A stretch of DNA of 43,991 bases from Escherichia coli O157 typing phage 9: the sequence record KP869107; one strand, 5' to 3'. This document shows, piece by piece, positions 1-43,991 of the stretch (position 1 is its first letter; every line of letters starts with the position of its first letter). The notes under the pieces are model-generated. The model searched no databases. It was not told the origin of the DNA and saw only the letters and a list, made by a program, of their open reading frames with translations. The position numbers and the translations under genes were made by a program.

Positions 1-270
1 ACAAATTTGCCTAATTGCCCTGGCCCACCAAGAGGAACAAAGTTATTCATCACGGCGTTGTTTGCGCCGGGGTCATGATGCACAGAATCCCCGTTTTTTG
101 TCCTGCTCTCCCTCTCTTGGTTAAATGACTGGTTATATGACTGGTTCTGGATCCCGTTTTTGGGATCATTCAACATCCCGTTTTTGGGATCATTCAACAT
201 CCCGTTTTTGGGTATATTCCCGTTTTCGGTAACATTACCGTTTTCGGGTTCATTGACCCCCTCTCGGTTG
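1..270. repeat. Direct repeat, copy 1 (matches 39093-39374 except one 12-bp unit)
   Basis: Read directly: acaaatttgcctaattgccctggcc... recurs at 39093; copy 1 has 2 units of atgactggtt(a/c)t, copy 2 has 3. Confidence 0.95.
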
Positions 271-1305: not shown

Positions 1306-1890
1306 ATGAAAAGTATCCAGGACGTCCGCAGGCAAAATCTCAACGACTTGATCGACCGTGAATTCAATGGTGTTCAGACGCGGATGGCAGAAAAACTTGG
1401 AACTCAGGCAAATCTGGTAAACCGCTGGGCTCTTGGCAAGAAGGTTATCGGCGACCAGGTTGCGCGAAAAATTGAAGCTGCCGCCAATAAACCCCGTAAC
1501 TGGCTTGATATCGATCGCTCGCTTTCTCAGGAAGGTTTTCAGCCTGTCGGACCAAGCGACATTGGTCAACTGGCGGCTCACAACCTGGAACGCTGGATGA
1601 GCGAAAGCCGCGACCTTTCAACGCAGGGAAAACTTCACCGCGCATCCGGCGTCGCCCAGGTAACAATCAGCCGCCTGTTAAACAATGAGGTCAGCGTTTC
1701 CATTTCCACCCTGGAGAATGTTGCATCCGCATTTGGGCGTCACGGATATGAATTACTGATTCACCCGCACGACCCCGCGACTATCAACTATGACCGCTCG
1801 CGCTACGCATTGTTACCTGAAACAGAGAAGGCAAAGATCGAAAGTTACATTGAATTTGTCATCAACCAGAACGAAAAAAACAAACAATAA
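1306..1890 (+). CDS. Phage repressor-like protein with two HTH domains and no peptidase S24 (autocleavage) domain
   Basis: 194 aa, ATG at 1306; two HTH-like segments (MAEKLGTQANLVNRW... and ASGVAQVTISRLLN...); no Ala-Gly/Ser-Lys cleavage module recognisable. Confidence 0.55.
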   Translation: MKSIQDVRRQNLNDLIDREFNGVQTRMAEKLGTQANLVNRWALGKKVIGDQVARKIEAAANKPRNWLDIDRSLSQEGFQPVGPSDIGQLAAHNLERWMSESRDLSTQGKLHRASGVAQVTISRLLNNEVSVSISTLENVASAFGRHGYELLIHPHDPATINYDRSRYALLPETEKAKIESYIEFVINQNEKNKQ

Positions 1891-8476: not shown

Positions 8477-8774
8477 GTTGAGACCTCGTTATTTTGAAAA
8501 TCTGCACGACGTTACCGCGGGTTTTCAGAACGGCGGCAAGCATGACAGCGTTGATGACAACCTCCGAAAGATCGTCGGTCATTGGCGTGTGGTACCAGAA
8601 AGCGTACGCGGCACGTACCGGGATGCTGGCAGCGGCCACAATGAGGAAGTAAGCGATCCACCCTCCCCATCTGCGATGTTGTGAACCGTTACGCCGGAAC
8701 GTACCGACGCGGATCGCTATACATGAACAGATAACCGCATTAGCAATAAGCAAAAGCAGCTCATGAGTTGTCAT
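8466..8774 (-). CDS. Small membrane protein of the lysis cassette (holin or antiholin candidate)
   Basis: 102 aa with hydrophobic segments; directly upstream of and overlapping the endolysin start. Confidence 0.4.
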   Translation of the reverse strand: MTTHELLLLIANAVICSCIAIRVGTFRRNGSQHRRWGGWIAYFLIVAAASIPVRAAYAFWYHTPMTDDLSEVVINAVMLAAVLKTRGNVVQIFKITRSQHGD

Positions 8775-9165
8775 CGTCTTTTCTCCCCGGAATTAACTCG
8801 CGTGGATTGTCAGAACGGTGATAGAGCCAGATGCCAATGCGCACTGCGACTATTGCTGACACGAATGCGCCAGCAGAGAAGACGATCCCTTTCTCGAAAG
8901 AGTCCTGAGTGATGGTAGGGATCAGGCTGGCAAAGCCGATAAGGATCGACGCTGTGGGTTTGTAGAAGAGAAGGCCGCAGAGGAAGCTGAGCAACGACAG
9001 GAGCACGCGGCGACGGATTGGATACTCAACTGCCGAGGTAACAAAGATTACCGCACCAGCCAGAGCACCAAGCGCAACTTCTGGCGGAACACCTGCAATT
9101 ACTGCAGCAAGAGACCCCATGCTAAGCCACTGATTTAATGACTCACTGGTTAGCCCTGCTGACAT
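8761..9165 (-). CDS. Holin-like membrane protein
   Basis: Multiple TM segments; ATG at 9165 with GGTGG RBS (track start 9174 is GTG); first gene of the lysis cassette. Confidence 0.45.
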   Translation of the reverse strand: MSAGLTSESLNQWLSMGSLAAVIAGVPPEVALGALAGAVIFVTSAVEYPIRRRVLLSLLSFLCGLLFYKPTASILIGFASLIPTITQDSFEKGIVFSAGAFVSAIVAVRIGIWLYHRSDNPRELIPGRKDDDNS

Positions 9166-9324
9166 AATTACCACCGTTTACTGTGCATAAAGAACCCCCT
9201 TAGTTGGTGAGTCCATTATACACAATAAACCATATATGGTTAAAATAACTTAGAATTGATCCTATCGAAATTACCCGATAGGTGATATTATTTATTGAAA
9301 TAATACAGCTTAACGTACCTGGTC

Positions 9325-10341
9325 ATGAAAGATAAGAATTTGAATATTGAGTTGATTAGAGTGGCTGCTTGCTTTTTGGTGGTTGTTCTTCATTCTGTAA
9401 TTATAGGTATGAATGAAACAGGCTCATCAGGATGGGATATATTAAATATAATAGAATCTTTTACCAGAATATCTGTACCGTTATTCATTATGATTTCTGG
9501 GGCTTTGCTTATTAAAGAAAGTACAAATATGAATTCGTCATTAAAACGAGCAAATCGGCTATTCATTATTCTACTTTTCTGGTCGGCGATATATTACTTA
9601 TATCGTTCACATGTAAATAGTTTCCCCATAGATGTGAAATCATTTTTTAATTTATTTTTTCGATCGCAGATATTCTATCATATGTGGTACTTATATGCAG
9701 CCATTGGATTCGTTATCATTATGCCATTACTTAGTAAATTCTATTTACACTCAAATAAAATAGATGTTGTAATTTTAGTATGGTTATGGATGCTTCTTTT
9801 ATTCTTTAGTTTATTAAATGTATATCTTGGATTGAATTTAAATATCAACAATCTATTTCAAGTTAGTATATTTTCCAGCCTTGCTGTGTACTTGCTTCTA
9901 GGGAAGATAATTTTAGATAATCAAGTTAACATGACAAACTCAACAAAAATAATGTTAACCATTATGCTGACTGCATGTACGTTTGCGACCGCTTTTATAA
10001 CAAAGAATATTTCTGTTTACAGGGGACCGGTAAACCAGATGTTTTATGATAACTCGTCTTTGTTTATTGCCATGTCTGCAATATGTTTTATGGTGTTCAT
10101 GATAAACACCCCTGTTAAAAACAAAACGATATTACACATAGTGAAATTTATTTCTCCCTGCACACTAGGGATTTATCTTGTCCATCCATTAATCATTGAC
10201 ATACTCAGGAGATTTTTGCTTGATAAATATTCGATCCATCCAGAGATGTTTATCGTTATTCCTCTTTCTTTTATCGTGTTCTTAATTTCATTAGCCATCG
10301 TAGTTTTTTTAAGAAAATTTGGGTTGTCACGTGTAATATGA
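9325..10341 (+). CDS. Acyltransferase-3 family membrane protein (putative O-antigen acetyltransferase, lysogenic conversion)
   Basis: 338 aa polytopic membrane protein; markedly AT-rich compared with flanking phage DNA; sits next to the tailspike as in serotype-converting phages. Confidence 0.7.
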   Translation: MKDKNLNIELIRVAACFLVVVLHSVIIGMNETGSSGWDILNIIESFTRISVPLFIMISGALLIKESTNMNSSLKRANRLFIILLFWSAIYYLYRSHVNSFPIDVKSFFNLFFRSQIFYHMWYLYAAIGFVIIMPLLSKFYLHSNKIDVVILVWLWMLLLFFSLLNVYLGLNLNINNLFQVSIFSSLAVYLLLGKIILDNQVNMTNSTKIMLTIMLTACTFATAFITKNISVYRGPVNQMFYDNSSLFIAMSAICFMVFMINTPVKNKTILHIVKFISPCTLGIYLVHPLIIDILRRFLLDKYSIHPEMFIVIPLSFIVFLISLAIVVFLRKFGLSRVI

Positions 10342-10353
10342 CAACCAACTATA

Positions 10354-12981
10354 TTAAATATTTCCGTTCAGCGTGCGGAATGAGTATTGTTTATCCAGGT
10401 CTACTGGGGTAAATAATCCGTACATTCTGCTCGCTGCGTAGTCTGACTCAGATGAGAAACCGCCAACATAAACATGCGAACCTGCCCCTTCACATGCAAT
10501 ATCACCTGCTAATGGTCCTGAAAATGCGGTGATAGAAGATGTTCCGCTGTTGAATATGCTATTAAATGCGGCGTGAAGATCTGGTTGTCTGTACGCCCGT
10601 CGTATACGCCTTCCGGTATTTATATCAATAATAGACCACCATAATCGGCCTGGAGCGAATCCCATCGCAAAATGATATACGCCTCCTGAAGCTAACGCTT
10701 GCTCCGTTGTCAGATCGCTTGTTAACGTTTGAGTTATACCATCACCGGATAATAATATTGCTATAGTCTGCACACCACTGGAGTTAACTATAAATTGCAT
10801 AACAGCAGAGTTTCCAGAGGGCGAATATCCACTCCCCAGAGTGAAAGCTGTCATAGTTGTTGCACCCGTAAATGACGGGATTAGAACAAGGCCGATTGTA
10901 CACCCATGTCTCGATACTTTATCAGAAAATAATAACTTATCCTTGTTTGATTGCGTTAACTTAAGCATGTTTCCTTGCCCTAGTATCGAAGGAGCGCTTA
11001 CATATGTTGCGGTTGTAACGACTCCGTCAAATGTAGGAATATTGTTTTTTACGCTTCCTGTATATGTATAATAGTTTTTTAGGCCATTTATTATTAAATC
11101 ACCAGAATATGGCTGAATAAGATTATTGTCACCCATGAGTCGTTCGCTGTTTACTTCTGACTCGTAAATACCATTTATCAATACGGTACTATCGGAACCA
11201 ATACACCTCACATTTCCGGCTTGTGAATTTAGATCATATAGCGATGTAGCAGCATAGTTACGGCAAACATAACCATCTACAGTTACTATACTGTTTTCAA
11301 AAACCATATTATGGTATGACAGATTTGATGATGCACTATTTCTGTTAGTATTCAACCCACTGATAGCAACAGTTGAATTTTTAATATACAATCCATCGTA
11401 TGCACAGTCCTGTAACTCAACTCCTGTCATGTTTACATTTTGTGAATTAGAAATACGTAATCCTGAATATGGTGTTTCATTTTCTGAACCAGCCCAAATT
11501 AATTTGGCACCTATAATTCTGCAATTACCAGCACCATCAAGCACTAAGCATTCCTGCCCACACGTATCAATTTGAAGGTTTGTCCATGTAAAATCGGTAG
11601 TTCCGATCTTAGCCCCGGTTTTTTTAATGTTTCTTATGAATAATCCATGCGTTGAGACGGAAAAATTCGTTTCAGGATAATCAAATCCTAACTCGTCAAA
11701 TCCTGTAATGTGAACATTGCTAATGTAAAGATCCCTACGAACGTCAGGGGCGGTATTGAATGGATAGCTTGGTGCCCCACCTGGGTTTCCTGTCTCCATC
11801 GTTACCCCGCTTGTTCCCGCAGTTATTCCATCCCCATACAGGCCACAATCGGACAAATAAATCAGGCTGCAATCCTGAGTAATTGTCAGTAACGCGCCTG
11901 TTGCCCCAGATATTTGCTCTATCCTGGAAACGTGTAGACCAGACCCAGATAGTGAACACGACTTGTTATTTAGCTCAAGATTAGATGCTTTCCAGACATT
12001 TGTGCCAAGCTCAGCCGCCCTGCCACATTCAAGCATCTTTTGCAGTGCTGCTGTATCATCAGCCACGCCAGTGGCCCCAAACATAAACGGATTAACCTTA
12101 TCTGCATTAACCCGTAACCATACAGAACCACCTGCTGTTTTTATTACAACACCATCATCATCGGTATAGCCAGTTCCATCAAGTACAGCTCTGAATACCC
12201 CTCCACCAAGCCCAGTTCCGATCGTATGCTGTCGCAACGTGATCCTTTGACCATTTTTTTCAGGTTCTATTGTTCTTAGTGTCAATATATCAGGGCACTG
12301 ACCAATAAACTTAAATCCATCATTTGCCGCTAACTGGATCATTACATCAGTAGCCGAACCAGATTCAGGCAAAACCATTATCGGATTTCCAGTATCATCC
12401 ATTGCAACAATCTTATTCTTACGTTGCTCAATTCCCGGCAATGCTGGTATCGGCTCAGGGGTTCGTAGCGTTCTGCTCAGGTTTGTTTCTGCGACCCCAT
12501 CAACATATTTTTTTGTAGCCGCATCCTGCGGTCTTACAGGGTCACGAAGGTTACGAATATAGTTGTCCATTGCGTCGTAATAGTTAGCAACAAATGACGG
12601 CTTACGTAGCGCCAGACTAAACCAACTACGAACCTGCTGAATCAACATTGTCAGCTTATCAAACGCATCCTCATGCACCTCAGCAAAGAACTTCCCCTGG
12701 TTACGGAGATCTGTTTCCTGCGTAACCGACAGTTCACGTGATATGGAAATCTGGTAACCATTAGCCAGAGCTGTTGCAAGTATTACATTACCACCTTCAT
12801 ATCCCCCTGCGCCGGTTACTGTGTAGTCAGTATCCAGCGTCAGAACAGTGATGTTATCGTTCAGGTCAACAACCTGTACTACCAGATCAGATTCCTTGAA
12901 AACCCTAAAGGTATACGGAAATGATGTCGTAACACCGTTACCGGTGTATTCGTTGTGGTTAACTTCGGTTGAGACCGTCAT
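10354..12981 (-). CDS. Tailspike/tail fibre protein (T7 gp17-like N-terminal anchor plus beta-helix-like C-terminal domain)
   Basis: 875 aa; N-term EYTGNGVTTSFPYTFRVF...LDTDYTV anchor domain; long Gly/Asn/Ser-rich C-terminal region. Confidence 0.8.
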   Translation of the reverse strand: MTVSTEVNHNEYTGNGVTTSFPYTFRVFKESDLVVQVVDLNDNITVLTLDTDYTVTGAGGYEGGNVILATALANGYQISISRELSVTQETDLRNQGKFFAEVHEDAFDKLTMLIQQVRSWFSLALRKPSFVANYYDAMDNYIRNLRDPVRPQDAATKKYVDGVAETNLSRTLRTPEPIPALPGIEQRKNKIVAMDDTGNPIMVLPESGSATDVMIQLAANDGFKFIGQCPDILTLRTIEPEKNGQRITLRQHTIGTGLGGGVFRAVLDGTGYTDDDGVVIKTAGGSVWLRVNADKVNPFMFGATGVADDTAALQKMLECGRAAELGTNVWKASNLELNNKSCSLSGSGLHVSRIEQISGATGALLTITQDCSLIYLSDCGLYGDGITAGTSGVTMETGNPGGAPSYPFNTAPDVRRDLYISNVHITGFDELGFDYPETNFSVSTHGLFIRNIKKTGAKIGTTDFTWTNLQIDTCGQECLVLDGAGNCRIIGAKLIWAGSENETPYSGLRISNSQNVNMTGVELQDCAYDGLYIKNSTVAISGLNTNRNSASSNLSYHNMVFENSIVTVDGYVCRNYAATSLYDLNSQAGNVRCIGSDSTVLINGIYESEVNSERLMGDNNLIQPYSGDLIINGLKNYYTYTGSVKNNIPTFDGVVTTATYVSAPSILGQGNMLKLTQSNKDKLLFSDKVSRHGCTIGLVLIPSFTGATTMTAFTLGSGYSPSGNSAVMQFIVNSSGVQTIAILLSGDGITQTLTSDLTTEQALASGGVYHFAMGFAPGRLWWSIIDINTGRRIRRAYRQPDLHAAFNSIFNSGTSSITAFSGPLAGDIACEGAGSHVYVGGFSSESDYAASRMYGLFTPVDLDKQYSFRTLNGNI

Positions 12982-13452: not shown

Positions 13453-13493
13453 GGAGTGCTTATATTTACCGCAAAGGTAAATATAAGCACTCC
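13453..13493. promoter_or_regulatory. 41-bp perfect palindrome (18-bp arms, 5-nt centre) containing TTACCgcaaaGGTAA
   Basis: ggagtgcttatatttacc-gcaaa-ggtaaatataagcactcc read directly. Confidence 0.6.
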
Positions 13494-38849: not shown

Positions 38850-39374
38850 GCTTCAGGGCTGTTCCAGTGCGGAACGTTGTTATCAGGTAATGTTGATTGC
38901 TTCTGTCTGCTAATCTGCAGCCGCCTTGCCAGCTTCTGCTCCCACTGTGCCTGATGGTATGCCTTACCCTCAGCCATCCAGTAAATTCTGAACTCTGCAA
39001 GTTCCTGTGCCGTTGGCAGACTGTCCAGGTAGATCCCCTGCAATGAGCTTTTCCGAAGAAAGTCATCTGATGGCTGCCATTGTTCATGCATGACAAATTT
39101 GCCTAATTGCCCTGGCCCACCAAGAGGAACAAAGTTATTCATCACGGCGTTGTTTGCGCCGGGGTCATGATGCACAGAATCCCCGTTTTTTGTCCTGCTC
39201 TCCCTCTCTTGGTTAAATGACTGGTTATATGACTGGTTATATGACTGGTTCTGGATCCCGTTTTTGGGATCATTCAACATCCCGTTTTTGGGATCATTCA
39301 ACATCCCGTTTTTGGGTATATTCCCGTTTTCGGTAACATTACCGTTTTCGGGTTCATTGACCCCCTCTCGGTTG
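38831..39374 (-). CDS. Replication initiator O-like, C-terminal part plus iteron-encoded linker; N-terminus lost in the N run
   Basis: Minus-strand frame open from the N run through the iterons (MLNDPKNG repeats, NQSY repeats) to a stop at 38831; overlaps the P-like start. Confidence 0.6.
39093..39374. repeat. Direct repeat, copy 2 (truncated by N run at 39375)
   Basis: Identical to 1-270 apart from an extra 12-bp tandem unit at 39229-39240. Confidence 0.95.
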
Positions 39375-39474
39375 NNNNNNNNNNNNNNNNNNNNNNNNNN
39401 NNNNNNNNNNNNNNNNNNNNNNNNNNNNNNNNNNNNNNNNNNNNNNNNNNNNNNNNNNNNNNNNNNNNNNNNNN
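39375..39474. other. Run of 100 N (unresolved or masked sequence) at the junction between the two phage modules
   Basis: Read directly. Confidence 1.
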
Positions 39475-40077
39475 CACGGCATTCATCGCATCAAGAACCG
39501 GTGATAAATCCTCACCACCATTACCTTCTGCCTGCTGTGCTGATTGCTGAACACGGGACTGGAGATAGTTATTTTTACGGATGAGCGAAGCCACCGCGTC
39601 ACCAATTTCCGGATACATCTCCCTGATACGGGCAATCTGCTCATCAGAAATTTTTTCGTTTTCCGGTAACGGTGTGGGCTTCATACCGGCCTGGTGGATC
39701 TGAGACGTCAGCAGTTCCACCCTGCGTTTTTCTTCAGCTATCTGCCCACGAAGAAGTGCGGCTTCCTGTTCGGCCCGTTGCTTACCGGAACGTTCAGCCT
39801 CAAGGACTTCATAGGGAATGACGTGTTTACCGTCGCGGGTGAGCACCCCCTTCGCTTCCGGCTCCTTCACGTCCTGCGTCTGCTCCACACTGGCATCCGG
39901 CGTCGGTGCCACATTGTTATCGCCCGTCTGAGTCTGTGCTTCCTCATCCGCATGTTTTTCCGTGGTATCTTCCGTCACGACGTCCTGTGCGTGACTGTCA
40001 ATATCCACATCCCCAAGTCCTTCCAGCATTTTTTCCAGTTGTTCCGGGGTTTCTTCACCCGTAAATTCAAAATCCAT
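39475..40077 (-). CDS. Putative scaffolding-like protein of a P22-type head module, 3' end lost in the N run
   Basis: Acidic N-terminus and coiled-coil-like middle; located downstream of the portal as the scaffold gene is in P22-like phages. Confidence 0.35.
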
Positions 40078-40186
40078 AAATAACTCCGCATGGTCTGTTT
40101 ATCGGACAGATCCGAATGGTTGAGTAAATAAGGCTTATCGCTGCCCCCGCGAATAAGCGCACCGCTCCCGGAACGCTTACCTCCGG

Positions 40187-40216
40187 AAACAAAAAACCCC
40201 GTACGATGACGGGGTT
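40187..40216 (-). terminator. Rho-independent terminator after the P22-type portal gene
   Basis: aacccc-gtacgatgac-ggggtt with T6 on the minus strand. Confidence 0.45.
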
Positions 40217-40235
40217 CAGTTGAAGCCAGAGTTTT

Positions 40236-42336
40236 CAGAGCGACATTTCATTCATCCGCTGTTGTAACGTATACAGCATCTGTTGCTGAAGAACGTCCTG
40301 CTCCTGTTCCATATTCTGTACGCCGGTAATGATTTCTGCCGTATGTGCCTGGTTAAGCGCATNNNNNNNNNNNNNNNNNNNNNNNNNNNNNNNNNNNNNN
40401 NNNNNNNNNNNNNNNNNNNNNNNNNNNNNNNNNNNNNNNNNNNNNNNNNNNNNNNNNNNNNNNNNNNNNNNNNNNNNNNNNNNNNNNNNNNNNNNNNNNN
40501 NNNNNNNNNNNNNNNNNNNNNNNNNNNNNNNNNNNCTGCCTGTTGTTGCTGAAGTGCCTGTTGTTGTGCCGCTACTTCCTGTTCTTCCGGCGTCATTTCA
40601 TCCGGTGATTTTGGCGTCCCCAGCGCAGCACGAATACGCTCAACAAACTCCTGTTTCTGCGGCACATCCAGAAGATTAACCCACAGGTCGAGCACAACAG
40701 CCTGCACCTGAGGCGGCAGCCCCTGAATAACCTCTGACATTCTCTGTGCAAGCTGTGCCTTAAACGCCGGTGTCTGCTGAACAGGCGCCAGCGCAATATG
40801 TGTATTTAACCTTGAAATATCATTGGTCAGTTCACCATTATCACCTTCAGCATTGAGGACAATGGTCTGGCGACGCTGGCGATCATCGCGATTAATCACC
40901 ACTGCATGATTACGGCGTTTTTTCAGGTCATCGAGAAGATAAGCCAGCAACAGTCTTCCCACCTGCTGGCAGGCAAACTGGTAGTTATCGTTGATTTCCG
41001 CAAGGGTTGTGGCCCCCTGCTCCACCAGGTTACTGATAGCCACGCCTGACGTCGCACCTGAATCCTGCCCGAGAAATGCGGAATACACTCCNNNNNNNNN
41101 NNNNNNNNNNNNNNNNNNNNNNNNNNNNNNNNNNNNNNNNNNNNNNNNNNNNNNNNNNNNNNNNNNNNNNNNNNNNNNNNNNNNNNNNNNNNNNNNNNNN
41201 NNNNNNNNNNNNNNNNNNNNNNNNNNNNNNCTGCATGACCTGAAACTGCTGGCTGGCAACCTGAAAATCCTGCTCAACCCGAAAAACATCTGCGACACTT
41301 TTCTGATTTTTTCGGACCGGATTCAGTTTAATAATGCCATCCGGACGTTCGATCTGCTCCATCAGGTCGTTGTCTGACAACTGGGTGGCATCCTCGTCCA
41401 TAATCACGCGTTTGGCCTGAAGCAACCAGGTCAGCTTGATACGACGAAAATTCACCTCATCCTGTGCCGGAATGGCGCGGGAAATTAGCCCGTATGGCTC
41501 CCCGGTTTTATCCTTTCGGTATCCCCAGAAAGGAACCAGCGGAAACATCCCCTGCGGAGCACTACAGGGGCGATCCACAATAAAGTGTGGCCCGACAAAC
41601 CAGGCTTCACGAATACGGCTTACCCGCCCGACTTTCACCTGAACCCGCCCGGATGCCACAGCTACCGCCTGCATCAGATTATTTTTATCAAAGGCCACCA
41701 CCCGTCCATTACTGAGTTCAATCACCGGAAGACGCTCGAATGTACGGTAATAAACCACCTGAAGCAGCACACGACGGCGTTCACGCTGAAGCCATTCGTT
41801 CTGCTGTCGATCCCATGACTGATACTCTTCCCATGCACTCATCAACGGACTGGGCTGGCCTTCAGTAACCGTGGTATCGACAAAACCACGCCAGTCATCA
41901 ATGGCATAATCGATAACCTGAGCCATTCCCGGGAATGTAGCTTTTGCCTCATCGGTATCCATCCAGCGGCGACGCATCAGCCATCGGCAGTCACTTAAAT
42001 CAGCCTCCCGGCTCAGCCAGTCCCAGAAAACCTCATTCCGGCTGACAGTAGACACCTTAAATTCAGGCCCGAACGGATCGCTGTTTCGTCTGACCTCCAC
42101 CCAACTGAGGCCCGCCTTGATTTGTTCCGCATAGGCATCAGAGCGGGCTTTATTCATATTGCCAAGGCGGCATGCATCGGCAAATTCAGCATTAATAGCT
42201 TCAGCCAGTTTTTCAGTTTCATCATCTGGCTCGTCTGACATCACCACCAGATCAGTCCGTGTTTTGGCCTCCATTCCCAGAACGCCATCGACGGTAGGCG
42301 CGATGAGGTTATGGATAGTCATCGGCTGACCGCGAT
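40236..42336 (-). CDS. Portal protein, P22-type, interrupted by N runs (5' end inside the N run at 42337-42558)
   Basis: Long portal-sized reading frame with a Gln-rich C-terminal helical region (QEVAAQQQALQQQQA); true C-terminal frame ...QQRMNEMSL ends at 40236. Confidence 0.55.
40363..40535. other. Run of 173 N inside the portal gene
   Basis: Read directly. Confidence 1.
41092..41230. other. Run of 139 N inside the portal gene
   Basis: Read directly. Confidence 1.
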
Positions 42337-42558
42337 NNNNNNNNNNNNNNNNNNNNNNNNNNNNNNNNNNNNNNNNNNNNNNNNNNNNNNNNNNNNNNNN
42401 NNNNNNNNNNNNNNNNNNNNNNNNNNNNNNNNNNNNNNNNNNNNNNNNNNNNNNNNNNNNNNNNNNNNNNNNNNNNNNNNNNNNNNNNNNNNNNNNNNNN
42501 NNNNNNNNNNNNNNNNNNNNNNNNNNNNNNNNNNNNNNNNNNNNNNNNNNNNNNNNNN
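42337..42558. other. Run of 222 N spanning the terminase/portal gene junction
   Basis: Read directly. Confidence 1.
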
Positions 42559-43991
42559 GAGCCATCCAGTGTGTGGTTCTGCGTTTATCCGTTTTCTGTT
42601 TTACCCTCACCGGCATTCTGGCGCGCATCTCCTGGGCAATCATGTAGCTCATGAGCTGATCATCAAAGCAGCCTTCCTGTGCATTCATGGAGCCTTTCGC
42701 GTCATAAACGTAGGTGTTCATTTCCGATAATGTGCCTGACCAGCGGATCCCTGATATTCCATTATTCAGAAGCGTTTTCATTCCTTCGGTCAGAACAGGT
42801 TTGCTCTGACGGGTTGTCAGCCAGCCAAGGCGGGGCGTATCGTCGTCATATGCCTGGTCAAGATGCTGTTCGTTGTAGATATAACGTGTCGGATAGAGTT
42901 CCCGGAGTTTCAGGATAACTGCATGTCCGTGATTATTACGCTCCGGCCCCACAAACGCGTTGTTATACATACGACAGACCTGCGAAATGAGATGAGCAAA
43001 AAGTTCAGCATCGAGATGCCCGAACCAGTGAGCCACCTGCTCGCCATTACTGCGTTTGACAACATCCAGCGATGAGCGGTCTCCGTGCTCCAGCCCTTCG
43101 GCAGTATCTGCCCCANNNNNNNNNNNNNNNNNNNNNNNNNNNNNNNNNNNNNNNNNNNNNNNNNNNNNNNNNNNNNNNNNNNNNNNNNNNNNNNNNNNNN
43201 NNNNNNNNNNNNNNNNNNNNNNNNNNNNNNNNNNNNNNNNNNNNNNNNNNNNNNNNNNNNNNNNNNNNNNNNNNNNNNNNNNNNNNNNNNNNNNNNNNNN
43301 NNNNNNNNNNNNNNNNNNNNNNNNNNNNNNNNNNNNNNNNNNNNNNNNNNNNNNNNNTGTTCATCAGTAAGCGTGATGTTCATTGCCTTCTCAACCGCAG
43401 AAAAATACGTCATTTTTTCCCGTGACAGCTTCAGCCCGCTTTCCGGCACTCTGGCGCTGTATTTAGGATCCTGCCACCAGGCGTAAAAATGGAATTTATA
43501 ATCCTGTGCCGTCAGCAATAAGCCTGATGCAGTGATCTCCTGTGCTCGGTTACTCATCTCGTAAAAATCACCACCCACGCCTTCAGCAGTGGACTCATCA
43601 AAAATAATGCATTCATCAGAGACGGCATTAAGCGTACCGGTTCGCAGTTCTTTCGCCTTAGCCGGATATTTCGCGCAAATTTTGCCGTGCTCTGAGATAT
43701 GCAGGCGCTGCACCGTACCTGAACGGAATGAGGTTGCCACCTGGATACTCGAGCCGTGACCAAACAGGATATAGCCACCGCTGGCACCGCTACGACGTTC
43801 AACGATGGTGAATGAGGCTCTCAGCCAGTCAGGGAGATGATCAAACGGTACAGCAATTTTTGTGCGGAAAATTTCACTGGCAGCCTGTTTATCCTGAGCG
43901 ACGATCCCGCATTTGAGATGCGGAATGAATAATGCCTGGTCGAGAAGATAAATATCAATGGCTGTGGAAAATCCCAGCTGGCGCGCTTTCA
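42559..43991 (-). CDS. Terminase large subunit, P22-type; N-terminus beyond the window end, interrupted by an N run
   Basis: Minus-strand frame from the window end: ...ILFGHGSSIQVATSFRSGTVQRLHISEHGKICAKYPAKAKELRTGTLNAVSDECIIFDESTAEG...; after the gap ...VAHWFGHLDAELF...DDQLMSYMIAQEMRARMP (nuclease-domain-like). Confidence 0.55.
43116..43357. other. Run of 242 N inside the terminase gene
   Basis: Read directly. Confidence 1.

What the first reader, a model, noticed from the sequence alone, without database searches (positions are those of the whole stretch)
9175..10353. AT-rich acyltransferase moron next to the tailspike: probable O-antigen modification (lysogenic conversion)
The 338-aa polytopic acyltransferase-3 family gene is conspicuously AT-rich relative to the flanking phage DNA, is on the opposite strand to its neighbours, and is preceded by a TTACC-type site (9271-9285). 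O-antigen acetyltransferases in this position modify the receptor recognised by the tailspike and block superinfection.
Basis: partly seen in the sequence, partly recalled or inferred. Interest (0 to 1): 0.45.

Follow-up and report, generated by a model that had tools for sequence, protein, structure and literature searches.

The report
Known phiV10 O-antigen acetyltransferase gene

Summary
ORF 9325-10341 (+, 338 aa) is a single-domain Acyl_transf_3 protein. It has 30.9% GC in a 49% GC phage, which is the GC minimum of the genome. It lies on the opposite strand to both neighbours and is convergent with the tailspike gene. The stretch is 100% identical to gene oac (PhiV10p26) of Escherichia phage phiV10. 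Its GenBank note, and papers citing Perry et al. 2009, say it acetylates the O157 antigen and blocks phiV10 adsorption and plaque formation. Its low GC and moron position were published in 2013. The finding is therefore correct and already known.

Three things were added here.
- The low-GC block is larger than reported. oac and the receptor-binding part of the tailspike (10354-12321) share GC3 of 0.32. They form one contiguous block, 79% identical at DNA level, that also occurs in P22-like prophages of Salmonella enterica, among them the serovars Ago and Soerenga.
- The "TTACC site" is real. TTACC-N5-GGTAA occurs 14 times at one mismatch or fewer, against about 1.3 expected. The epsilon15 record annotates the same motif as the repressor operator.
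- The site before oac sits at a fixed backbone position in 39 of 76 related loci, abutting a -10-like element.

Whether the repressor throttles oac is untested.

The parts
9325..10341 (+). oac: 338-aa AT3-only O-antigen O-acetyltransferase (phiV10 PhiV10p26)
   Evidence: ORF. Pfam PF01757, E = 5.8e-36. PHROG 3333 'O-acetyltransferase', E = 1.8e-54. 100% identical to the phiV10 oac gene. Motifs R12-X10-H23, R75-A-N-R78, I57-S-G59 and Y284-L-V-H287 are present. AlphaFold2 model is all-helical, pLDDT 92.6.
9271..9285 (.). TTACCCGATAGGTGA: one-mismatch copy of the phage repressor operator TTACC-N5-GGTAA
   Evidence: The motif is enriched about tenfold or more in the window. The epsilon15 record annotates the same motif as 'protein_bind: repressor'. 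In relatives it is conserved 113-116 nt from the gp27 start, with variable N5.
9283..9291 (+). Candidate extended -10 element (TGATATTAT) of the oac promoter, overlapping the right operator half-site. Inferred, not shown.
   Evidence: A TAnnnT hexamer directly after or overlapping the operator occurs in all 21 distinct upstream regions of loci with + strand cargo. No transcript data were available.
9175..9245 (.). Conserved backbone block between gp27 and the operator. It holds a candidate leftward promoter for the lysis cassette: TTAACC at 9243-9238, 17 nt, TATAAT at 9220-9215.
   Evidence: Near-invariant in 8 relatives. Consensus promoter scan scores 10 of 12 on the - strand. The epsilon15 record places an RNase III site in the equivalent block. 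Function is inferred.
10322..10346 (-). Hairpin followed by a T-run on the - strand, a likely terminator of the tailspike transcript. It lies inside the last codons of oac.
   Evidence: Terminator scan. Folding energy -12 kcal/mol, z = -3.0. An equivalent stem-loop is annotated as a terminator in epsilon15. The hairpin is conserved in the P22-like locus L095.
10354..12321 (-). Tailspike residues 221-875, the receptor-binding part. It belongs to the same low-GC3 cassette as oac.
   Evidence: GC3 is 0.323, equal to oac at 0.322 and far from 0.52-0.58 for backbone genes. It is 89% identical to the tailspike of P22-like Salmonella prophages. Window 9428-12321 aligns with L095 as one contiguous blastn block at 79% identity.
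12322..12981 (-). Tailspike residues 1-220, the epsilon15-type particle-binding N-terminal part (backbone)
   Evidence: It has no counterpart in the P22-like tailspike, which carries a P22 head-binding domain instead. GC3 is 0.427. The phiV10 annotation notes similarity to epsilon15 gp20.
8761..9165 (-). gp27, a holin-like membrane protein and the first gene of the lysis cassette. It was the anchor used to collect related loci.
   Evidence: Pfam Phage_holin_8. PHROG 198 holin. 345 relatives in IMG/VR, of which 80 were fetched.
1306..1890 (+). Repressor gene (PhiV10p40), whose product presumably binds the TTACC-N5-GGTAA sites
   Evidence: Homologous to the SPC32H repressor Rep, PDB 5D50, E = 4e-42. 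It is flanked by operator clusters at 1188, 1219 and 1236 and at 1948 and 2010.

Best explanation
The gene is oac of the temperate podovirus phiV10 (genus Uetakevirus).

Mechanism. It encodes an inner-membrane acyltransferase-3 protein with no SGNH domain. As generally proposed for AT3 proteins, it would take an acetyl group from a cytoplasmic donor, presumably acetyl-CoA, pass it across the membrane and O-acetylate a sugar of the O157 O-antigen repeat. The O157 antigen is the receptor of the adjacent tailspike, and the acetylated antigen is a poor receptor. Cells that express oac therefore bind less phiV10 and are not plaqued. This is receptor-level superinfection exclusion, or lysogenic conversion.

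Anatomy. oac sits in the slot between the lysis cassette and the tailspike gene. In this phage genus that slot regularly carries O-antigen-modifying genes on the strand opposite to the late genes. A hairpin terminator inside the last codons of oac probably stops the tailspike transcript before it can run antisense through oac. oac is probably read from its own extended -10 promoter. That promoter is overlapped by an operator of the phage repressor.

Shown, by publication: the activity on the O157 antigen and the block of binding and plaque formation.
Shown here: the identity, the family motifs, the composition, the cassette and the conservation of the operator.
Inferred: the promoter, the terminator, repressor binding at this site and the direction of its effect.
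For: Identity: 100% over 1179 nt to the phiV10 oac gene, and the whole window 1-39374 is the phiV10 genome.

Function, from the literature:
- PMC11854483: the pBAD-oac plasmid reduces phiV10 binding to O157:H7 and O157:H- strains. It cites Perry 2009 for the O157 modification and the loss of plaques.
- PMC9558356: an AT3-only protein that acts in serotype conversion by O-acetylation of the O-antigen.

Family:
- PF01757, 124.6 bits.
- H23 is invariant and R12, Y284 and H287 are at least 90% conserved among 56 homologues.
- R12-X10-H23 and R75xxR78 are present. The review names these motifs as functionally important in OafA/OafB and OacA.
- The confident all-helical model has human HGSNAT as its best solved-structure match. 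HGSNAT is an acetyl-CoA-dependent transmembrane acetyltransferase.

Link to the receptor:
- The nearest homologues always sit convergent with a tailspike. The 99%-identical protein is in phiV10-type prophages; its cluster includes proteins named from Salmonella serovar Urbana. Urbana is group N, with an O-unit related to O157.
- The 55%-identical protein is in P22-like Salmonella prophages whose tailspike receptor-binding part is 89% identical to that of phiV10.
- oac and that tailspike part form one DNA block with equal GC3.

Slot: in relatives the same slot holds the epsilon15 polymerase inhibitor and beta-polymerase, gtr genes, or one of at least 17 dissimilar acyltransferases.
Against: - I could not read Perry et al. 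2009 itself. The experimental claims reach me through the GenBank note and citing papers.
- The acetylated sugar position is reported as unidentified.
- Expression in lysogens was not seen in any data available here.
- The operator lies across the candidate promoter, a geometry like that of the repressible early promoter at 1205-1177. This would predict repression in lysogens, which fits a purely lysogenic role poorly.
- Fold support is weak in numbers: Foldseek E = 0.07 and TM-score 0.47-0.53.
Confidence: 0.93

Rival explanations
1. oac is mainly an early lytic or infection-phase gene. It is transcribed in a burst before the repressor accumulates, and again after induction. This would stop sibling phages from adsorbing to infected cells and debris. 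In established lysogens the repressor would hold it down, so it would not be a classical constitutively expressed conversion gene.
For: The repressor operator overlaps the candidate -10 element in all 21 distinct upstream regions of loci with + strand cargo. The orientation, with the GGTGA half-site next to a TATTAT hexamer, matches the operator inside the spacer of the leftward early promoter at 1205-1177. The P_L-like promoter is also covered by an operator.
Against: epsilon15 carries a perfect operator at the same place. Yet its lysogens are stably converted, which is established knowledge about epsilon15 and recalled rather than tested here. The phiV10 record calls the product an immunity function. 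A single operator with a degenerate half-site may only dampen expression. No expression data exist either way.
Confidence: 0.15
2. The acyltransferase modifies another envelope glycan rather than the O-antigen, for example enterobacterial common antigen as WecH/YiaH does, or peptidoglycan or capsule. Exclusion would then be indirect.
For: The typing phage 10 record labels the gene 'yiaH: inner membrane protein'. AT3 proteins have many different substrates.
Against: Published work reports modification of the O157 antigen and reduced binding. The gene travels in one DNA block with the tailspike part that recognises the O157/O30 antigen, in two unrelated phage backbones. The yiaH label is an automatic name, not an experimental result.
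Confidence: 0.03
3. The low GC is only a side effect of the hydrophobic amino-acid composition of a polytopic membrane protein. It is not a sign of foreign origin.
For: The protein is rich in I, L, F, K and N, whose codons are AT-rich.
Against: GC3 is 0.32, against 0.54-0.56 in the adjacent membrane proteins gp27 and holin. The soluble tailspike receptor-binding part has the same GC3 of 0.32. The block is shared at 79% nucleotide identity with a P22-like prophage. Relatives with more than 95% identical flanks carry different genes in the slot.
Confidence: 0.02

Closest known systems
Oac (PhiV10p26, AAZ95944.1) of Escherichia phage phiV10; Perry et al. 2009, FEMS Microbiol Lett 292:182
   Same: It is the same gene: 100% nucleotide identity over 9175-10353 and the same neighbours.
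   Different: Nothing in the gene differs. The window differs from the phiV10 record only by a 12-nt indel at position 124 and by an unrelated tail after 39374.
Oac/OacA of Shigella phage Sf6, and OacB, OacC and OacD
   Same: AT3-only architecture. A phage-borne gene next to the tailspike. It O-acetylates the O-antigen that the tailspike uses and so blocks superinfection. The motifs R/K-X10-H and RXXR are shared.
   Different: No detectable sequence similarity in a tblastn search of 50,697 phage records at E <= 1e-3: no Shigella phage was hit. The substrates differ, a rhamnose-containing repeat against the perosamine-containing O157 repeat. The phage backbone differs, P22-like against Uetakevirus.
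OafA and OafB of Salmonella (AT3 fused to SGNH)
   Same: The same membrane AT3 domain and the same kind of substrate, the O-antigen.
   Different: The phiV10 protein has no SGNH domain. Several relatives in the same slot do have one, for example the 654-aa protein of L038.
Serotype-conversion module of epsilon15 (gp22 alpha-polymerase inhibitor, gp21 beta-polymerase)
   Same: The same slot, the same opposite-strand orientation, the same upstream operator and the same terminator at the junction with the tailspike gene.
   Different: The chemistry is entirely different: a change of O-antigen polymerase linkage rather than acetylation.
Human HGSNAT (PDB 8VKJ and related entries)
   Same: Best solved-structure match of the model. 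It is a transmembrane acetyltransferase solved in complex with acetyl-CoA.
   Different: 12% identity, TM-score about 0.5, E = 0.07. It is a lysosomal eukaryotic enzyme with extra domains. This is an analogy of fold and mechanism, not family membership.

Membership tests
Acyltransferase-3 (AT3, Pfam PF01757) | Domain match above the curated threshold over the whole domain | tested here: met
   124.6 bits against a cut-off of 31. Residues 6-327 match profile positions 2-322 of 326.
Acyltransferase-3 (AT3, Pfam PF01757) | R/K-X10-H motif in the first transmembrane helix | tested here: met
   R12-X10-H23. H23 is invariant and R12 is at least 90% conserved in 56 homologues. The motif is named in PMC9558356.
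Acyltransferase-3 (AT3, Pfam PF01757) | RXXR motif in the first cytoplasmic loop (essential in OacA) | tested here: met
   R75-A-N-R78. The alignment consensus there is KRxxR.
Acyltransferase-3 (AT3, Pfam PF01757) | Polytopic all-helical membrane protein of about ten helices | tested here: met
   AlphaFold2 model with pLDDT 92.6 and pTM 0.91, and 13 helices of which about 10-11 are long enough to span a membrane. The hydropathy scan agrees. Topology was not determined experimentally.
Acyltransferase-3 (AT3, Pfam PF01757) | Acyl transfer to an extracytoplasmic glycan | not testable with these tools
   Reported for this gene by Perry 2009, as cited. The sugar position is unidentified.
AT3-SGNH fused O-antigen acetyltransferases (OafA/OafB type) | C-terminal periplasmic SGNH domain (PF19040) | tested here: not met
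   Only PF01757 was found, and the protein ends at residue 338. A slot relative of 654 aa does show PF19040.
Close relative (orthologue) of Sf6 Oac | Detectable pairwise sequence similarity | tested here: not met
   tblastn against the phage collection gave no Shigella phage hit at E <= 1e-3. The best hit outside phiV10-type records was 27% identical, in a Salmonella record.
Phage moron / lysogenic-conversion cassette | Atypical composition and presence or absence between otherwise near-identical phages | tested here: met
   GC 0.31 against 0.49. Relatives with about 95% identical flanks carry other genes or none in the slot. Only 2 of 5426 complete E. coli genomes hold the full gene.
Phage moron / lysogenic-conversion cassette | Own promoter and terminator | tested here: inconclusive
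   There is a conserved -10-like element after the operator. The only clear terminator at the 3' end is on the opposite strand. No transcript data were available.
Phage moron / lysogenic-conversion cassette | Expressed from the prophage and changes the host phenotype | not testable with these tools
   The phenotype is shown with the cloned gene. Expression in lysogens rests on Perry 2009, which is not held in the library.
Operator of the epsilon15-family repressor (SPC32H Rep type) | Palindrome TTACC-N5-GGTAA, conserved half-sites, variable centre, in a regulatory region | tested here: met
   One mismatch at 9271-9285. The same position is occupied in 39 of 76 related loci, with N5 varying. 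The epsilon15 record annotates the identical motif as repressor sites.
Operator of the epsilon15-family repressor (SPC32H Rep type) | Bound by the repressor | not testable with these tools
   The phiV10 repressor is homologous to Rep of PDB 5D50. Binding at this site is inferred only.

The most novel reading that the evidence does not exclude
In the epsilon15/phiV10 genus the O-antigen-conversion slot may be wired directly to the lysis-lysogeny switch. A repressor operator is fixed in the backbone 113-116 nt from the first lysis gene and overlaps an extended -10 promoter. Whatever modification gene lands in the slot, whether acetyltransferase, gtr or polymerase, would then inherit repressor control: a burst after infection or induction, and throttling in stable lysogeny. 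The operator survives in slots that have no cargo and no -10 element. It may therefore also guard the lysis cassette, or serve as a looping anchor for the tetrameric repressor.
Probability: 0.35. Interest if true: 0.4.

Novelty: already known. Interest (0 to 1): 0.12.

Why it matters
The gene itself matters in practice. phiV10 is used for O157 phage typing and as a reporter phage, and strains that carry a phiV10-type prophage escape detection because of this gene. That is already known. The side results are modest. The acetyltransferase and the tailspike receptor-binding part move together as one cassette between two unrelated podovirus lineages, whose hosts include Salmonella group N and E. 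coli O157, which have related O-antigens. The conversion slot also carries a conserved repressor operator. If that operator works, surface modification would be tied to the phage's regulatory state, which could be tested with simple reporter fusions.

Tried and rejected
- Perry et al. 2009, Kropinski et al. 2007 (PMC2698709) and Kim et al. 2016 (PNAS, SPC32H Rep) are not held in the library. Their content is used only through citing papers, GenBank annotation or memory, and is marked as such.
- A sequence search of the PDB with Oac found nothing meaningful. Only the fold search gave HGSNAT, and that match is weak.
- The 7-bp inverted repeat CCTATCG/CGATAGG at 9261-9282 was flagged as terminator-like on the + strand. 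It is not conserved in relatives, because the centre of the operator varies. I treat it as incidental.
- I considered that the operator marks + strand cargo only. This is rejected as an absolute rule. 10 of 39 loci without + strand cargo keep the operator, four of them with the tailspike stop 15-63 nt after the start of the site. 7 of 37 loci with + strand cargo lack it. The loci are related to one another, so no p-value is given.
- I tried to place the oac promoter so that the operator would sit at an activator position near -41. No usable -10 element exists there in phiV10, and the downstream sequence is not conserved (reading).
- A literature search for a described operator in front of the conversion genes found none. 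That does not prove it is undescribed.

Full report
**1. Observation**

The stated interval 9175-10353 holds one real gene, ORF 9325-10341 on the + strand, 338 aa. The upstream gene is the holin-like gp27, annotated at 8761-9165 with a longest ORF reaching 9174. The downstream gene is the 875-aa tailspike at 10354-12981. Both are on the - strand.

The ORF has 30.9% GC, against 48.9% for the phage part of the window. It is the GC minimum among all 1017-nt windows. z is -4.5 against all windows and -8.4 against windows outside 9000-12000. The edges are sharp, near 9200 and 10400. GC is low at all three codon positions. The neighbouring membrane proteins gp27 and holin have GC3 of 0.54-0.56, so amino-acid bias does not explain the shift.

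Pfam gives a full-length Acyl_transf_3 match and nothing else: 124.6 bits against a cut-off of 31. The sequence at 9271-9285, TTACCCGATAGGTGA, is a one-mismatch copy of TTACC-N5-GGTAA.

**2. Identity**

The interval is 100% identical to Escherichia phage phiV10 (DQ126339.2 / NC_007804.2). There the gene is annotated as oac, PhiV10p26, 'O-acetyltransferase; acetylates the host O-antigen; functions in superinfection immunity'.

Window 1-39374 is the complete phiV10 genome, circularly permuted, with about 280 nt repeated at both ends and a 12-nt indel at position 124. The remainder, 39375-43991, is not phiV10 (see section 7).

**3. What is known experimentally**

I could not open Perry et al. 2009. 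[quoted passage not shown] The same paper adds its own binding assays. The pBAD-oac plasmid significantly reduces phiV10 binding to an O157:H7 strain and to an O157:H- strain.

The AT3 review PMC9558356 lists the gene as an Oac homologue that acts in serotype conversion 'at an unidentified sugar position'. PMC3573123 had already tabulated the gene as 31% GC in a 49% GC genome. It called such homologues 'un-ameliorated' and lying 'within a known moron position'.

**4. Family features and mechanism**

In an alignment of 56 homologues, H23, G59, W121, P134 and G193 are invariant. R12, V51, P52, F54, M56, W86, Y90, G282, I283, Y284 and H287 are at least 90% conserved. The protein carries R12-X10-H23 and R75-A-N-R78. 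The review singles out these two motifs as functionally important in OafA/OafB and in OacA.

The AlphaFold2 model is confident, with pLDDT 92.6 and pTM 0.91, and is all-helical. No solved structure is detectable by sequence. By fold, the best matches are six chains of human HGSNAT, a transmembrane acetyltransferase solved with acetyl-CoA bound. The match is weak: probability up to 1.0, E from 0.07, TM-score 0.45-0.53.

This agrees with the general AT3 model in the review, in which an acetyl group is taken from a cytoplasmic donor and delivered to a glycan outside the membrane. There is no SGNH domain, so the protein is AT3-only like the Oac proteins and is not OafA-type.

**5. The unit that moved is larger than the gene**

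Across 5.8 billion proteins the family thins out quickly:
- a 99%-identical cluster;
- three clusters at 51-55% identity, from Salmonella and Citrobacter braakii;
- everything else at 38% or less.

The 99% cluster comprises E. coli O157:H7 and Salmonella proteins, including one from serovar Urbana. The protein lies in phiV10-type prophages, in the same slot, with a 96%-identical tailspike.

The 55% cluster comes from Salmonella serovars such as Ago and Soerenga. It lies in P22-like prophages arranged as integrase, then acyltransferase, convergent with a tailspike. That tailspike has a P22 head-binding domain. From residue 122 onwards it is 89% identical to phiV10 tailspike residues 221-875.

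At DNA level, window 9428-12321 aligns with that locus as one uninterrupted block at 79% identity. The block runs from inside oac, through the convergent junction with its hairpin, to the domain boundary of the tailspike. GC3 is 0.322 for oac and 0.323 for this tailspike part, against 0.52-0.58 for backbone genes.

Serovar Urbana belongs to Salmonella group N, whose O-unit is related to the O157 tetrasaccharide. That Ago and Soerenga are also O:30 is from my own knowledge of the Kauffmann-White scheme. The receptor-binding module and the receptor-modifying gene thus form one cassette, found in two unrelated podovirus backbones. The hosts named so far include E. coli O157 and Salmonella group N, whose O-antigens are related.

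The full gene is rare: only 2 of 5426 complete E. coli genomes hold it, both O157:H7.

**6. The slot and the 'TTACC site'**

*The slot.* In relatives the position between gp27 and the tailspike holds various cargo:
- the epsilon15 alpha-polymerase inhibitor and beta-polymerase;
- GtrA plus acyltransferases in SPN1S;
- AT3 proteins of 600-655 aa in Tyrion, 66FD and two E. coli prophages.

Among 80 IMG/VR loci anchored on gp27, 76 could be classified. 37 carry cargo on the + strand, all with low GC of 0.29-0.41. The cargo falls into many mutually dissimilar clusters. All ten representatives tested are Acyl_transf_3, one of them with SGNH.

*The motif.* TTACC-N5-GGTAA occurs 8 times exactly and 6 times with one mismatch, against 0.04 and 1.3 expected. 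Most copies lie between genes:
- 1188, 1219 (two mismatches) and 1236, between the cro-like gene and the repressor gene;
- 1948 and 2010, before the early-left genes;
- 7093, before int;
- 9271, before oac;
- 13086 and 13466, around p24 and before the antirepressor;
- 30711;
- 33858 and 33876, which fall inside the annotated start of the small terminase gene;
- 37935 and 37997.

The epsilon15 GenBank record annotates ATTACC-N5-GGTAAT sites as 'protein_bind: repressor'. The phiV10 repressor is homologous to SPC32H Rep, PDB 5D50, E = 4e-42. Rep is a tetramer that binds palindromic sites. The site is therefore best read as a repressor operator.

*Conservation.* The site belongs to the backbone, not to the cargo:
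- About 110 nt upstream of oac are conserved in relatives with different cargo. AAATTACC-N5-GGTGATA is kept while N5 varies.
- In the IMG/VR set the operator sits 113-116 nt from the gp27 start in 29 of 37 loci with + strand cargo, and in 10 of 39 loci without.
- All 21 distinct upstream sequences of cargo-bearing loci have a TAnnnT hexamer directly after GGTGA, giving TGnTAnnnT, an extended -10 form. Where the half-site is GGTAA, the hexamer overlaps it (TAAAAT or TAAGAT). Several empty slots keep the operator but have lost that hexamer.

*Regulatory reading.* The geometry, an operator over the spacer and the -10 element, resembles the leftward early promoter at 1205-1177, whose spacer holds operator 1188-1202 in the same orientation. 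It therefore predicts dampening by the repressor, not activation. That is hard to square with constitutive conversion in lysogens, and I could not resolve it. Repressor binding, the promoter and the sign of the effect are all inferences.

*The terminator.* On the - strand, a hairpin at 10322-10346 followed by a T-run lies just after the tailspike stop and inside the last oac codons (dG -12 kcal/mol, z = -3.0). epsilon15 has an annotated terminator at the equivalent place. This suggests that the tailspike transcript ends there. In that case oac would not be read antisense, and the lysis cassette would need its own promoter. A candidate for that promoter, TTAACC-17-TATAAT at 9243-9215, lies in the near-invariant block 9175-9245.

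**7. Verdict**

The finding is correct in observation and in interpretation, and it is already known at the level of gene, function and compositional oddity.

The additions here are incremental:
- the true extent of the foreign cassette;
- its presence in P22-like Salmonella prophages;
- the diversity of cargo in the slot;
- a conserved repressor operator and promoter in front of the slot, whose regulatory meaning is open.

Interest is low for the finding as given. The operator question is a small, testable lead.

One unrelated point: the window tail 39375-43991 consists of pieces 100% identical to the terminase and portal region of Stx2 phages such as 933W. The pieces are separated by five runs of N. 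The window therefore looks like a scaffold that joins phiV10 to fragments of another prophage.

Noticed in passing
window 39375-43991: After the complete phiV10 genome come a 100-N gap and then pieces 100% identical to the large-terminase and portal region of Stx2 phages (933W, VT2-Sakai), broken by four more N runs. This looks like a scaffold or assembly join, not one phage genome.
   Followed up: partly
window 1-270 and 39093-39374; position 124: About 280 nt are present at both ends of the phiV10 part, which is circular-permutation overlap. The window lacks one copy of a 12-nt tandem repeat (ATGACTGGTTAT) that the phiV10 record has at this point.
   Followed up: partly
window 851, 1188, 1236, 1948, 2010, 7093, 9271, 13086, 13466, 30711, 33858, 33876, 37935, 37997 (15 nt each): A genome-wide network of 14 TTACC-N5-GGTAA sites at one mismatch or fewer. 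The network includes sites before int and before the antirepressor. Two sites fall inside the annotated start of the small terminase gene. Only four such sites are annotated in the 8.5-kb immunity-region stretch of the epsilon15 record that I fetched.
   Followed up: partly
window 13458-13488: The operator at 13466 sits in the centre of a perfect 31-nt palindrome, GCTTATATTTACC-GCAAA-GGTAAATATAAGC, between p24 and the antirepressor gene. It could be a hairpin as well as a binding site.
   Followed up: no
window 9175-9245: This block is near-invariant across the 8 aligned relatives. It contains the palindrome CCATATATGG and a 10-of-12 consensus promoter pointing into the lysis cassette. The epsilon15 record calls the equivalent an RNase III site.
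   Followed up: partly
L028, L054, L063, L019 (IMG/VR loci), about 113-177 nt upstream of the gp27 start: These slots are empty, with the tailspike stop codon 15-63 nt after the start of the operator. They still keep a perfect or one-mismatch operator, although several have lost the -10-like hexamer.
   Followed up: partly
L030 (251 aa) and L059 (392 aa), - strand ORFs in the slot: Some relatives carry, on the late-gene strand, proteins with signal-peptide-like N-termini and GDS/GNS-type motifs. These may be SGNH esterases or acetyltransferases. They were not run against Pfam.
   Followed up: no
L071-L090 subset (13 loci): A group of relatives has a conserved small ORF of 98-118 aa on the late-gene strand between gp27 and the tailspike, and no operator. 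Its function is unknown.
   Followed up: no
L045 (IMG/VR), slot: One locus carries two cargo genes in tandem: a 335-aa protein that clusters with the 321-aa slot proteins of L026 and L053, and a 357-aa protein. Neither was run against Pfam. The slot can evidently stack modules.
   Followed up: no
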